Origin: Escherichia coli
Lineage (GTDB): Bacteria > Pseudomonadota > Gammaproteobacteria > Enterobacterales > Enterobacteriaceae
Strand: one strand, 5' to 3'
Length of the DNA: 64,000 nucleotides
Assembly (NCBI RefSeq): GCF_965641715.1
Contig: NZ_OZ282453.1
How positions within the stretch are numbered: the first letter of the stretch is position 1; every line of letters begins with the position of its first letter. Shown piece by piece: positions 40,501 to 43,500 of the stretch. The position numbers were made by a program.

Positions 40501-43500
40501 GCTTTCCCCGCGTGGACGAGAAACGCAGGCGGATGTGCCTGCGTTTGAACCGCTGTTTGCCGACTCCGATTGTTCCGCAATGAGTAACACCTGGCGAGGT
40601 TCTCTGGAGTCATTGGCGTGGTTTATGCGCTACTGGCGCGATAATTTTTCTGCGGCTTACGATCTCAACCGGGTATTTTTAATCGGCAGCGATAACCTCT
40701 GCATGGCCAATTTCGGTCTGCGTGATATGCCAGTGGAACGCGATACCGCGTTGAAAGCGTTGCATGAACGCATCAATAAATATCGAAATGCACCACAAGA
40801 TGATAGCGGCAGTAACCTCTACTGGATCAGCGAAGGTCCGCGCCCTGGCGTCGGGTATTTTTACGCGTTGACGCCAGTTTATCTGGCGAACAGGTTGCAG
40901 GCGCTTTTGGGTGTCGAGCAGACCATCCGGATGGAGAATTTTTTCTTACCGGGTACGTTGCCGATGGGGGTTACCATTCTTGATGAAAATGGTCATACCC
41001 TGATTTCGCTTACCGGACCAGAAAGCAAAATTAAGGGCGATCCTCGCTGGATGCAGGAACGCTCCTGGTTTGGCTATACGGAAGGTTTCCGGGAGCTGGT
41101 GCTGAAGAAAAATCTGCCTCCCTCATCGCTAAGCATCGTTTATTCGGTGCCGGTTGATAAGGTGCTGGAACGCATTCGCATGTTGATCCTTAACGCAATT
41201 TTGCTGAATGTGCTTGCTGGAGCTGCATTGTTTACTCTCGCGCGGATGTACGAGCGGCGTATTTTCATTCCGGCGGAAAGCGATGCCCTGCGACTGGAAG
41301 AACATGAGCAGTTTAACCGCAAGATTGTCGCCTCCGCGCCAGTGGGTATCTGTATTTTGCGTACCGCAGATGGCGTCAATATTTTAAGTAACGAACTGGC
41401 GCATACCTATCTCAATATGCTTACGCATGAGGACCGCCAACGGCTGACACAAATTATCTGTGGGCAGCAGGTCAATTTTGTTGATGTCCTGACCAGCAAT
41501 AATACCAATCTGCAAATCAGCTTCGTCCATTCGCGCTATCGTAATGAAAACGTGGCCATTTGTGTGCTGGTGGATGTTTCTTCGCGCGTGAAGATGGAAG
41601 AGTCGTTGCAGGAGATGGCACAAGCAGCGGAACAGGCGAGCCAGTCAAAATCGATGTTCCTTGCCACCGTCAGTCATGAGCTGCGAACGCCGCTGTATGG
41701 CATTATCGGTAACCTGGATCTTTTGCAAACCAAAGAGTTACCGAAAGGCGTCGATCGTCTGGTGACGGCAATGAACAACTCTTCCAGCCTGTTGTTGAAA
41801 ATTATCAGCGATATTCTCGATTTCTCGAAGATTGAATCGGAACAGTTGAAGATCGAACCGCGTGAGTTTTCACCGCGTGAAGTGATGAACCACATCACCG
41901 CCAACTATTTACCGCTGGTGGTACGCAAGCAGTTAGGCTTGTACTGCTTTATTGAACCGGATGTGCCAGTGGCTTTAAATGGCGACCCGATGCGTTTACA
42001 GCAGGTCATCTCCAACCTGTTGAGTAACGCCATAAAATTCACCGATACCGGCTGTATAGTTTTGCATGTCCGCGCTGATGGCGATTATCTCTCTATCCGT
42101 GTTCGCGATACCGGCGTGGGGATTCCGGCGAAAGAAGTGGTGCGCTTGTTTGATCCCTTCTTCCAGGTCGGAACGGGCGTACAGCGAAACTTCCAGGGGA
42201 CCGGTCTGGGTCTGGCGATTTGTGAAAAACTGATCAGCATGATGGACGGCGACATCTCGGTAGATTCAGAACCGGGAATGGGCAGCCAGTTTACCGTGCG
42301 TATTCCGTTGTACGGCGCTCAGTACCCGCAGAAAAAAGGCGTGGAAGGGTTGAGTGGTAAACGCTGCTGGCTGGCGGTCCGCAATGCGTCGCTCTGTCAG
42401 TTCCTGGAAACCAGTTTGCAGCGCAGCGGCATCGTCGTTACAACATACGAAGGGCAGGAACCGACTCCCGAAGATGTGTTAATCACTGACGAGGTAGTGA
42501 GTAAAAAATGGCAGGGCAGAGCGGTAGTGACCTTCTGTCGTCGCCATATTGGTATTCCGCTGGAGAAAGCGCCAGGGGAGTGGGTACACAGTGTGGCTGC
42601 TCCGCATGAGCTACCGGCATTGTTGGCGCGTATTTATTTGATCGAGATGGAGAGCGACGATCCTGCTAACGCTCTGCCGTCGACGGACAAAGCGGTCAGC
42701 GATAATGACGATATGATGATTCTGGTCGTGGATGATCATCCGATTAACCGACGTCTGCTGGCAGATCAGTTGGGATCGTTGGGCTATCAATGTAAAACCG
42801 CGAATGATGGCGTCGATGCGCTTAATGTACTTAGCAAGAATCATATTGATATCGTGCTTAGCGACGTCAACATGCCAAATATGGATGGTTACCGCTTGAC
42901 GCAACGCATTCGTCAGTTGGGACTGACGTTGCCGGTAATTGGAGTAACGGCTAATGCGTTGGCTGAAGAGAAGCAGCGGTGTCTGGAGTCCGGTATGGAC
43001 AGCTGCCTGTCGAAGCCGGTAACGCTGGATGTGATAAAACAGACGCTGACGGTATATGCCGAGAGGGTCAGGAAATCGCGGGATTCGTAGGACGGATAAG
43101 GCGTTTACGCCGCATCCGGCATTCAGTGCAAATGCCAGATGCGACGCTGACGCGTCTTATCTGGCCTACTTTAATGTAATCTGTTGAAATAATGGGATTC
43201 GTAGGACGGATAAGGCGTTTACGCCGCATCCGGCAATCGGTGCAAATGCCAGATAAGACACTAACGCGTCTTATCTGGCCTACAGGTGATTAGTCTTTAT
43301 CTGCCGGACTTAACGTCACTGAAGAGAGATAATTCAGCAGGGCGATATCGTTCTCGACACCCAGCTTCATCATCGCAGATTTCTTCTGGCTACTGATGGT
43401 TTTAATACTACGGTTCAGCTTTTTAGCGATCTCGGTCACCAGGAAGCCTTCCGCAAACAAGCGCAGAACTTCACTCTCTTTTGGCGAGAGACGTTTGTCA

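What the first reader, a model, noticed from the sequence alone, without database searches (positions are those of the whole stretch)
43077..43292. The rcsC stop codon and last codons lie inside a duplicated REP-containing repeat
The segment gggattcgtaggacggataaggcgtttacgccgcatccggca...cgcgtcttatctggcctac occurs twice (from 43081 and from 43194). The first copy supplies the final codons (…S-R-D-S) and TAG stop of rcsC, and the second ends at the convergent rcsB stop. A repeat element therefore defines the C-terminus of a sensor kinase, and recombination between copies could alter the rcsC 3' end or rcsB-rcsC terminator spacing.
Basis: seen in the sequence. Interest (0 to 1): 0.4.

Follow-up and report, generated by a model that had tools for sequence, protein, structure and literature searches.

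The report
REP repeat array overlapping rcsC stop
The duplicated segment is an ordinary, already catalogued E. coli REP/BIME repeat array (REP162 in K-12) lying between the converging rcsC and rcsB genes. Its first palindrome happens to contain the rcsC stop codon, and recombination between its units changes the spacer length and touches, at most, the last two codons of rcsC.

Summary
The repeat is real: 43072-43169 and 43186-43283, 98 nt, 91% identical, period 114. Each copy is a BIME-2-type unit made of a y REP, a 12-nt linker and an inverted z2 REP, and each scores above the Rfam naRNA4 threshold. In K-12 the element is catalogued as REP162, and both z2 hairpins are listed as mapped bidirectional terminators.

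The rcsC TAG (43088-43090) is the TAG of the y REP's GTAG. This holds in 5,400 of 5,426 complete E. coli genomes and in three other Escherichia lineages. Other genera end rcsC one codon earlier, or end it ...RES* without any REP. So the REP supplies at most Ser949 and the stop. The 15 repeated bases upstream of GTAG are rcsC coding sequence that was copied into the array.

Recombination between units is confirmed. Genomes carry 1 unit (about 18%), 2 units (about 81%) or 3 or more (under 1%), giving spacers of 85, 199 and 313 bp. Units are mosaics, and one-unit alleles arose at least three times. Codon 948 is polymorphic: GAT in 1,916 genomes and GAA in 3,484.

A second K-12 gene, yafL, also ends inside an identical REP. 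The finding is correct but ordinary, and interest is low.

The parts
40241..43090 (+). rcsC coding sequence (949 codons plus TAG). It has the same length as K-12 b2218.
43072..43086 (+). Last 15 coding bases of rcsC (GAAATCGCGGGATTC; codons K-S-R-D-S up to the GTAG). They form the non-REP left flank of repeat unit 1. Base 43084 is the polymorphic T/A of codon 948 (D/E).
43087..43121 (+). Unit 1 y-type REP, GTAG-first (GTAGGACGGATAAGGCGTTTACGCCGCATCCGGCA). Its TAG (43088-43090) is the rcsC stop. An in-frame TAA follows at 43097-43099.
43122..43133 (.). Short linker of unit 1 between the two inverted REPs (ttcagtgcaaat).
43134..43169 (-). Unit 1 z2-type REP (GTAG-first on the minus strand), a GCCAGAT...ATCTGGC variant. 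It corresponds to K-12 bidirectional terminator #183 (2316942-2316985).
43170..43200 (.). Inter-unit linker. It consists of 16 nt of unknown origin (43170-43185) plus a 15-nt degenerate copy of the rcsC tail (43186-43200, GAAATAATGGGATTC). It is unique to this locus in E. coli genomes.
43201..43235 (+). Unit 2 y-type REP. In this window bases 43198 and 43206 carry the unit-1 state, which suggests a conversion tract of 9-42 nt.
43236..43247 (.). Short linker of unit 2 (atcggtgcaaat).
43248..43283 (-). Unit 2 z2-type REP, a perfect 12-bp palindrome. It starts 6 nt after the rcsB stop on the rcsB strand and corresponds to K-12 bidirectional terminator #182 (2316832-2316874).
43290..43940 (-). rcsB coding sequence (216 codons plus TAA at 43290-43292).

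Best explanation
The segment is a two-unit BIME-2-type REP array (REP162 of K-12) that fills the 199-bp gap between the convergent rcsC and rcsB genes. Each unit is a y REP and an inverted z2 REP joined by a 12-nt linker.

Shown:
- The leftmost y REP abuts rcsC so closely that its conserved GTAG supplies the TAG stop.
- 15 nt of the rcsC tail were carried into the array's inter-unit linker when the second unit formed. This happened before E. coli and E. albertii diverged.
- Since then, unequal crossing-over and short-tract gene conversion between the units have produced 1-, 2- and 3-unit alleles and mosaic units.

Inferred: these exchanges have shuffled the base that makes RcsC residue 948 Asp or Glu.

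Function on both mRNAs: the REPs fold into very stable hairpins. In the literature these act as bidirectional, U-tract-less terminators and 3'-exonuclease barriers, and this has been mapped for this locus in K-12.

Inferred only: because the hairpin starts at the rcsC stop codon, it probably slows translation termination and damps RcsC synthesis.
For: REP identity:
- REP consensus matches are found against 0 expected.
- Both units score 77.5 and 73.7 bits against Rfam RF02564 naRNA4, whose gathering score is 59.5. That model describes a y+z2 BIME unit.
- The definition of BIME-2, and the fact that tandem BIME number at a locus varies between strains, come from PMC3333891.
- The REP162 label and two bidirectional-terminator entries on the z2 hairpins of both units are in the supplement of bioRxiv 10.64898/2026.03.23.713779. 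My own folds reproduce its energies of -25.3 and -21.9 kcal/mol.

RNA structure:
- Unit 1 on the rcsC strand folds at -45.3 kcal/mol (z = -6.8), with GUAGG paired to CCUAC.
- The whole spacer folds with z = -5.8 on the plus strand and z = -8.6 on the minus strand.

Conservation of the stop inside GTAG:
- The exact 32-mers ending ...GA(T/A)TCGTAGG are found in 1,916 + 3,484 = 5,400 of 5,426 genomes.
- The same junction is present in three further Escherichia lineages. E. albertii has the two-unit layout.

Direction of copying:
- rcsC tail codons are orthologous in genera without this REP.
- The inter-unit linker occurs once per genome.
- There is a precedent for a gene's 3' end being absorbed into a BIME (PMC2817692).

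Recombination:
- Spacers of 85, 199 and 313 bp exist.
- Units are mosaics; a private variant is shared by both units of strain MY504; one-unit alleles show three different crossover points.

Translation damping: a REP fewer than 16 nt from a stop codon lowers translation (Liang et al. 2015, as summarised in PMC12306157).
Against: - There are no expression, ribosome-profiling or protein data for rcsC itself, so the translation-damping step is inference only.
- No canonical hairpin-plus-U-tract terminator is present.
- The 16-nt stretch at 43170-43185 has no identified source, so the exact event that created unit 2 is unresolved.
- The BIME-2 flanking motifs (s/l/r) could not be checked.
- The polarity of the D/E change rests on three outgroup loci plus a partial E. 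albertii locus.
- The window-specific unit-2 haplotype could be an assembly homogenisation artefact.
Confidence: 0.82

Rival explanations
1. The overlap of the stop codon with the REP is incidental. rcsC already ended ...TCG TAG, and a REP settled next to, or recruited, this pre-existing GTAG. On this reading the REP defines nothing about the protein.
For: - Pseudocitrobacter rcsC ends ...KTRES* with TCG TAA or TCG TAG, followed by an ordinary hairpin terminator and no REP.
- GTAG at a stop occurs without a REP in L040 and L047.
- TnpA-REP needs a GTAG next to the hairpin (PMC3333891).
Against: - The nearest genera by rcsC identity (Citrobacter, Salmonella, about 75-77%) all end one codon earlier, R-x-TAA.
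- So the extra TCG-TAG appears together with the REP in Escherichia.
- Pseudocitrobacter is no closer to Escherichia than those genera are.
Confidence: 0.35
2. The duplication is a plain segmental duplication of the rcsC 3' end by replication slippage, with the REPs as passengers and no REP-specific mechanism involved.
For: - The repeat includes 15 nt of non-REP coding flank.
- The one- and three-unit alleles look like the products of ordinary unequal homologous exchange.
Against: - The two copies are separated by 16 unrelated bases, so this is not a clean tandem duplication.
- Tandem amplification is a general property of y/z2 BIMEs. Two more arrays lie in the same window, at 55068-55406 (3 x 113 nt) and 19970-20160.
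- TnpA-REP cleaves linker CT sites and joins BIMEs in vitro.
Confidence: 0.15
3. The units are genes for naRNA4-like HU-binding small RNAs that organise the nucleoid.
For: Both units exceed the Rfam naRNA4 gathering score. naRNA4 was described as REP325-derived (PMC4550694, listed).
Against: - The Rfam model in effect describes any y+z2 BIME unit; it also matches five other BIME units in the window.
Confidence: 0.05
4. The window-specific feature, unit 2 carrying the unit-1 bases at 43198 and 43206, is an assembly artefact of a collapsed or cross-polished repeat rather than a real gene conversion.
For: This haplotype is absent from all 5,426 complete E. coli genomes. 114-nt repeats are easily homogenised by short-read polishing.
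Against: - Comparable partial homogenisations are seen in independent complete genomes: O157 and MY504 have A at the second site, and MY504 shares a private linker variant in both units.
- E. albertii and another Escherichia lineage carry T at the first site of unit 2.
Confidence: 0.1

Closest known systems
REP162 of E. coli K-12 MG1655 (rcsB-rcsC intergenic REP element)
   Same: It sits in the same position, has the same 199-bp spacer and is nearly identical in sequence: 3 differences between the rcsC and rcsB stops. Its z2 hairpins are listed as bidirectional terminators with the same folding energies.
   Different: In the window, unit 2 has T and A at 43198 and 43206 where K-12 has A and C, and the linker has C at 43182 where K-12 has T.
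BIME-2 arrays (Gilson/Bachellier nomenclature; Ton-Hoang et al. 2012, PMC3333891)
   Same: It has y and z2 REPs in inverse orientation with a short linker, is tandemly repeated, and its unit number varies between strains.
   Different: The inter-unit linker here is locus-specific and contains a copy of the adjacent gene's last 15 nt. The z2 stem carries a compensated T-A to A-T swap (GCCAGAT...ATCTGGC). Whether the linker matches the s/l/r motifs was not tested.
REP325 / naRNA4 (yjdM-yjdN; Rfam RF02564)
   Same: It has the same two-hairpin y+z2 unit, with scores above the family threshold. Both are 3'UTR-located tandem arrays.
   Different: REP325 has six units between tandem genes. This array has two units between convergent genes and overlaps a stop codon.
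REPs within 15 nt of a stop codon (Liang, Rudd & Deutscher 2015, as cited in PMC12306157)
   Same: The REP hairpin begins at the stop codon, well inside the under-16-nt zone reported to stall terminating ribosomes.
   Different: Here the distance is negative, with a 4-nt overlap. rcsC itself has not been tested, and the primary paper could not be read.
rayt 3' ends absorbed into BIMEs (Nunvar et al. 2010, PMC2817692), and yafL next to rayT in K-12
   Same: A flanking gene's 3' end becomes part of the inter-REP segment. The yafL TAG lies in the GTAG of a y REP that is identical at 35 of 35 bases to the one at rcsC.
   Different: Those cases sit in the REPtron, next to the transposase gene. rcsC is an unrelated housekeeping locus.
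REPINs (REP doublets forming hairpins; Bertels & Rainey 2011, PMC3116915)
   Same: Two inverted REPs fold as one long hairpin (-45.3 kcal/mol).
   Different: REPINs were defined in Pseudomonas with a different REP sequence family. Mobility of this unit has not been shown.

Membership tests
E. coli REP (palindromic unit) | An imperfect palindrome of 30-40 nt with an internal mismatch. | tested here: met
   The y REP (43087-43121) folds as 5 bp, a 2x2 internal loop and 4 bp. The z2 REPs fold at -21.4 to -25.3 kcal/mol. Consensus search.
E. coli REP (palindromic unit) | A conserved GTAG/CTAC tetranucleotide at the foot of the hairpin. | tested here: met
   GTAG is at 43087 and 43201 on the plus strand. 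CTAC is at 43166-43169 and 43280-43283.
E. coli REP (palindromic unit) | High copy number in the genome and an extragenic location. | tested here: inconclusive
   High copy number is met: a median of 26 places per genome even with the reporting cap, and 14 REP ends in the window. Strictly extragenic is not met, because 4 nt overlap rcsC.
BIME-2 | A y and a z2 REP in inverse orientation separated by a short linker. | tested here: met
   The layout is read directly from the sequence. The y/z2 assignment rests on consensus sequences recalled from Gilson/Bachellier, and on the naRNA4 model, which represents a Z2+Y unit.
BIME-2 | Tandem repetition, with unit number variable between strains. | tested here: met
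   1, 2 and 3 units are found in E. coli genomes.
BIME-2 | Flanking s, l or r motifs; DNA gyrase binding. | not tested
Gyrase binding is experimental.
Rfam RF02564 naRNA4 | A covariance-model score at or above the gathering threshold (59.5 bits). | tested here: met
   77.5 and 73.7 bits on the plus strand. The minus strand scores 56.5 and 52.5 bits, below threshold.
Rfam RF02564 naRNA4 | Processed into a discrete HU-binding RNA. | not testable with these tools
   This needs northern blots or EMSA. The function is questioned by bioRxiv 10.64898/2026.03.23.713779.
Intrinsic (Rho-independent) terminator | A GC-rich hairpin followed by a U tract. | tested here: not met
   0 terminator-like sites in 42900-43500. 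Termination at these hairpins is nevertheless listed from full-length RNA mapping in K-12.
Translation-damping REPs (Liang et al. 2015) | A REP starting fewer than 16 nt after the stop codon of the upstream gene. | tested here: met
   The distance is -4 for rcsC and +6 for rcsB. The criterion is as quoted in PMC12306157.
Translation-damping REPs (Liang et al. 2015) | Ribosome stalling, tmRNA tagging and a reduced protein level. | not testable with these tools
   Experimental.

The most novel reading that the evidence does not exclude
The non-coding pseudo-tail of rcsC held in unit 2 acts as a template that writes back into the gene. Under this reading the Glu948Asp polymorphism of RcsC (GAT in 35% of E. 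coli) was introduced by BIME-to-BIME gene conversion. In the outgroup Escherichia lineages unit 2 carries T and unit 1 carries A at this site. Under the same reading, the 1/2/3-unit length variation tunes termination, mRNA stability and RcsC translation differently among E. coli lineages.
Probability: 0.2. Interest if true: 0.35.

Novelty: already known. Interest (0 to 1): 0.15.

Why it matters
It matters little beyond bookkeeping. It is a clean, quantified example of how REP/BIME arrays behave:
- They sit on stop codons.
- They absorb a few bases of the neighbouring gene.
- They change unit number by unequal exchange.
- They homogenise by short conversion tracts.

For anyone working on Rcs signalling, three practical points follow.
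- The rcsC-rcsB spacer comes in 85-, 199- and 313-bp forms.
- RcsC residue 948 is Asp or Glu depending on the strain.
- The rcsC stop codon is buried in a -45 kcal/mol hairpin that, by analogy with other REPs, may limit RcsC synthesis. That prediction is untested.

Tried and rejected
- The primary papers on REPs and translation (Liang et al. 2015, PMC4427526; Liang & Deutscher 2016, PMC4829296) are not held. The 16-nt rule is therefore cited second-hand from PMC12306157.
- The RepRanger supplements do not mention rcsC. A full-text search for rcsC together with REP gave only an unrelated CRISPRi paper.
- The K-12 RefSeq record in this collection carries no repeat_region features. The REP162 label comes from a preprint supplement.
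- A consensus scan for intrinsic terminators and promoters in 42900-43500 found none.
- I compared the 16-nt linker stretch (43170-43185) by eye with the rcsB 3' end and with the rcsC sequence upstream of the tail. It matched at 6-7 of 16 and 3 of 16 positions, which is not significant, so I make no claim about its origin.
- I tested whether the inter-unit linker is a generic BIME motif. It occurs once per genome, so it is not.
- I searched for the window's exact unit-2 haplotype in E. coli and found none.
- The survey for stop codons inside GTAG covered only the window plus 150 kb of K-12. It found 2 overlaps among about 10 REPs that directly follow a long ORF in GTAG-first orientation. This is too small for a rate. 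One further overlap hit in the K-12 sample (L096:27366, 2 mismatches to the REP pattern) was set aside by eye as not a genuine REP.
- The E. albertii locus (L019) is cut before the rcsC stop, so its unit-1 state is unknown.
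Full report
**1. Observation**

The sequence between 43030 and 43310 was read directly. The repeat finder reports one direct-repeat family: 43072-43169 and 43186-43283, 98 nt, 91% identical, spacing 114.

The flanking genes are as follows.
- The long ORF 40241-43090 ends ...VYAERVRKSRDS*. It matches RcsC of PDB 2AYX to the last residue.
- The minus-strand ORF ending at 43290 is RcsB.
- The gap between the two stop codons is 199 bp, exactly as in K-12 MG1655, where rcsB ends at 2316827 and rcsC at 2317027.

'gggattcg' begins at 43080, not 43081. Copy 2 stops 6 nt short of the rcsB stop codon rather than at it.

**2. Anatomy**

Each copy consists of three parts:
- a GTAG-first REP (GTAGGACGGATAAGGCGTTTACGCCGCATCCGGCA; 43087-43121 and 43201-43235);
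- a 12-nt linker;
- an inverted REP (GCCAGATGCGACGCTGACGCGTCTTATCTGGCCTAC; 43134-43169 and 43248-43283).

The REP consensus is found 5 times in the window against 0 expected, and the REP end motif 14 times against 0.1 expected. By the consensus sequences I recall from Gilson and Bachellier, the first REP is a y unit. The second is a z2 unit with a compensated stem swap (GCCtGAT...ATCaGGC changed to GCCaGAT...ATCtGGC).

A y and a z2 REP in inverse orientation with a short linker, tandemly repeated, is the definition of BIME-2 quoted in PMC3333891. Rfam gives an independent formal test. Both units match RF02564 (naRNA4, a Z2+Y two-hairpin unit from REP325) at 77.5 and 73.7 bits against a gathering score of 59.5. 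The same model also matches five other BIME units in the window, at 20050-20113 and in the array at 55068-55376.

The rcsC TAG (43088-43090) is the TAG of the GTAG tetranucleotide of the first y REP. A second in-frame stop, TAA, lies two codons on, inside the same REP (43097-43099).

**3. What is repeated beyond the REPs**

The repeat extends 15 nt to the left of GTAG: GAAATCGCGGGATTC in unit 1 against GAAATAATGGGATTC in unit 2. That is 12 of 15 matches in fixed register, with a binomial P of about 1e-5 by my own arithmetic.

Two observations show that this is rcsC sequence copied into the array, not array sequence that became rcsC.
- The codons are orthologous in genera that lack this REP. 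Examples are Kluyvera AAG TCG CGG GAA TAA and Citrobacter braakii GCG CGG GAA TAA.
- The 51-nt junction that spans the inter-unit linker occurs once per genome in E. coli, with a median of 1 place. It is therefore not a generic BIME linker motif.

The remaining 16 nt of the linker (43170-43185) resemble neither flank. The event was therefore not a clean tandem duplication, and its exact form is unresolved.

**4. Comparison across Enterobacteriaceae**

A scan with RcsB returned 80 species-level loci.
- Escherichia. In all three other Escherichia lineages recovered (L009, L010, L015), rcsC ends CGG GAA TCG TAG|G..., with the TAG inside a REP. Their arrays differ in size: 84, 154 and 146 nt. E. 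albertii (L019, a partial locus) has the two-unit layout with the same kind of linker. The arrangement therefore predates the species E. coli.
- Salmonella and Citrobacter. rcsC ends one codon earlier (R-x-TAA). A BIME follows 1-4 nt later in the opposite arrangement (...CCTAC ... GTAGG...), which indicates an independent colonisation of the same intergenic region.
- Pseudocitrobacter. rcsC ends ...KTRES* (TCG TAA or TCG TAG), followed by an ordinary hairpin terminator and no REP.

By rcsC 3'-end identity, all non-Escherichia genera lie at about 73-77%. Parsimony therefore mildly favours the extra Ser codon plus TAG having arisen together with the REP in Escherichia. A pre-existing TCG-TAG cannot be excluded. 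Either way, the REP accounts for at most one residue and the stop.

**5. Variation within E. coli (5,426 complete genomes)**

The junction. The 32-mers ending ...CGGGATTCGTAGG and ...CGGGAATCGTAGG are found in 1,916 and 3,484 genomes respectively. So 99.5% of genomes have the stop inside GTAG. RcsC residue 948 is Asp in 35% and Glu in 64%.

Unit number.
- The inter-unit junction is present in 4,436 genomes, or 81.8%.
- The rest have a single unit and an 85-bp spacer. Examples are E2865, 779, Ec-U14-1, EC-16-35 and TL20. This agrees with 8 of 39 evenly sampled records.
- The 4,471 places found in 4,436 genomes (highest 3 per genome) leave about 35 extra junction copies. Strain CI5 has three units and a 313-bp spacer.

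Mosaic units. A table of variable sites for 19 loci shows the following.
- Strain MY504 has a private linker variant (AATCCGTG) in both of its units.
- UMB200201, VTB96959v and YZ22PE244 have a unit-1-type z2 REP in unit 2.
- O121 and MY504 have a unit-2-type z2 REP in unit 1.
- The one-unit alleles are left-unit-1/right-unit-2 chimeras with at least three different crossover points.
- The middle unit of CI5 is chimeric, as expected from unequal exchange.

The window itself. In the spacer it differs from its nearest relative, TUM13936, only at 43198 and 43206. At both sites it carries the unit-1 base. Two random mutations doing this has a probability of about 3e-4 by my arithmetic: (11/199 x 1/3) squared. 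The tract is 9-42 nt long. This haplotype is absent from all 5,426 genomes, so an assembly artefact remains possible.

Codon 948. GAA is the state in all three outgroup Escherichia loci, whereas the corresponding base in their unit 2 (and in E. albertii) is T. Within E. coli, the T/A at 43084 and a C/T 33 nt downstream occur in all four combinations. This fits the Asp allele having been templated from unit 2, but a point mutation is equally simple.

**6. Function**

Folding.
- The spacer is strongly structured on both strands, with z = -5.8 and -8.6.
- On the rcsC strand, unit 1 folds into one long hairpin of -45.3 kcal/mol in which GUAGG, and hence the stop codon, pairs with CCUAC.
- On the rcsB strand, the z2 hairpins fold at -25.3 and -21.9 kcal/mol.

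Literature on this locus. Those energies and sequences are the entries listed for bidirectional terminators #182 (2316832-2316874; log and stationary phase) and #183 (2316942-2316985; stationary phase), labelled REP162 and 'Convergent', in the supplement of Harris et al. 2026 (bioRxiv 10.64898/2026.03.23.713779). In window coordinates they map to about 43243-43286 and 43132-43176. No hairpin-plus-U-tract terminator is present.

Literature on REPs in general.
- The same preprint concludes that REPs are local 3'UTR elements acting as partly Rho-dependent terminators and decay barriers.
- It reports that about 30% of convergent gene pairs (207 of 704) carry one, and that effects depend on context.
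- RepRanger (PMC12306157) summarises Liang et al. 2015: REPs fewer than 16 nt from a stop codon stall ribosomes and lower translation.

Here the distance is -4 for rcsC and +6 for rcsB. Damped RcsC and RcsB synthesis is therefore predicted, but it has not been shown.

**7. How unusual is a stop codon inside a REP?**

I surveyed the window plus 150 kb of K-12. About ten REPs follow a long ORF in GTAG-first orientation, at distances of -4, -4, 3, 5, 6, 7, 23, 41, 53 and 53 nt. One further -4 hit in the K-12 sample (L096:27366, two mismatches to the REP pattern) was set aside by eye as not a genuine REP.

The second overlap is yafL. Its annotated CDS ends at K-12 247461, in the GTAG of a y REP that is identical at 35 of 35 bases to the one at rcsC. 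It lies immediately upstream of rayT, the REP-associated transposase gene. The arrangement is therefore recurrent, not exceptional.

**8. Verdict**

The element is a known, catalogued REP/BIME array. The claim that recombination can change the spacing is borne out by population data. The claim that the repeat defines the RcsC C-terminus is true only for the stop codon and possibly Ser949. Nothing here departs from established REP biology.

The only mildly new points are three:
- the quantified 1/2/3-unit polymorphism;
- the absorbed 15-nt rcsC tail;
- the possibility that the Asp/Glu948 polymorphism was written by conversion from the pseudo-tail.

Noticed in passing
window 55068-55406: Another tandem BIME array: three units of 113 nt, 92% matches, TRF score 569. 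Three naRNA4 hits on the minus strand lie above threshold.
   Followed up: partly
window 19970-20160: A BIME array with z2 REPs repeated at a period of 81 nt (20000 and 20081) alternating with y REPs. One naRNA4 hit at 20050-20113.
   Followed up: partly
window 26925-27010: A single BIME in the tail-to-tail arrangement (...CCTAC ggagagcattt GTAGG...). This is the same arrangement as the rcsC-rcsB BIME of Salmonella and Citrobacter.
   Followed up: no
L097:47458-47492 (K-12 247458-247492): The yafL stop codon TAG lies in the GTAG of a y REP identical (35/35) to the rcsC one, including the unusual GTAGGACGG. It sits directly upstream of rayT, which hints that the REPtron BIME and the rcsC BIME share a recent source.
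   Followed up: partly
window 43097-43099: The y REP in this orientation carries two in-frame stops (TAG GAC GGA TAA). Read-through of the rcsC TAG would therefore add only two residues.
   Followed up: no
window 40241: The rcsC ORF of the annotated length (949 codons, as in K-12 b2218) begins with TTG according to the ORF list.
   Followed up: no
window 46941-47034 (-): MicF antisense RNA (Rfam RF00033, 116.8 bits), upstream of rcsD as in K-12.
   Followed up: no
window 25920-25993: Imperfect tandem repeat of 18/36 nt (GATCCTGATCCCACGCCC-like, about 4 copies). It is presumably coding for an Asp/Pro-rich stretch, but the gene was not identified.
   Followed up: no
L018 and L083 (Leclercia adecarboxylata, Mangrovibacter plantisponsor): The rcsC-rcsB spacer is 697 and 1,193 nt in these two species, against 36-205 nt in the other loci analysed. 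Something has been inserted there.
   Followed up: no
L021, L024, L004, L008, L062, L054 (Salmonella, Citrobacter): The same intergenic region has been colonised independently by a BIME of different REP type and opposite arrangement, starting 1-10 nt after the rcsC TAA/TAG. The site seems to be a recurrent REP landing place.
   Followed up: partly
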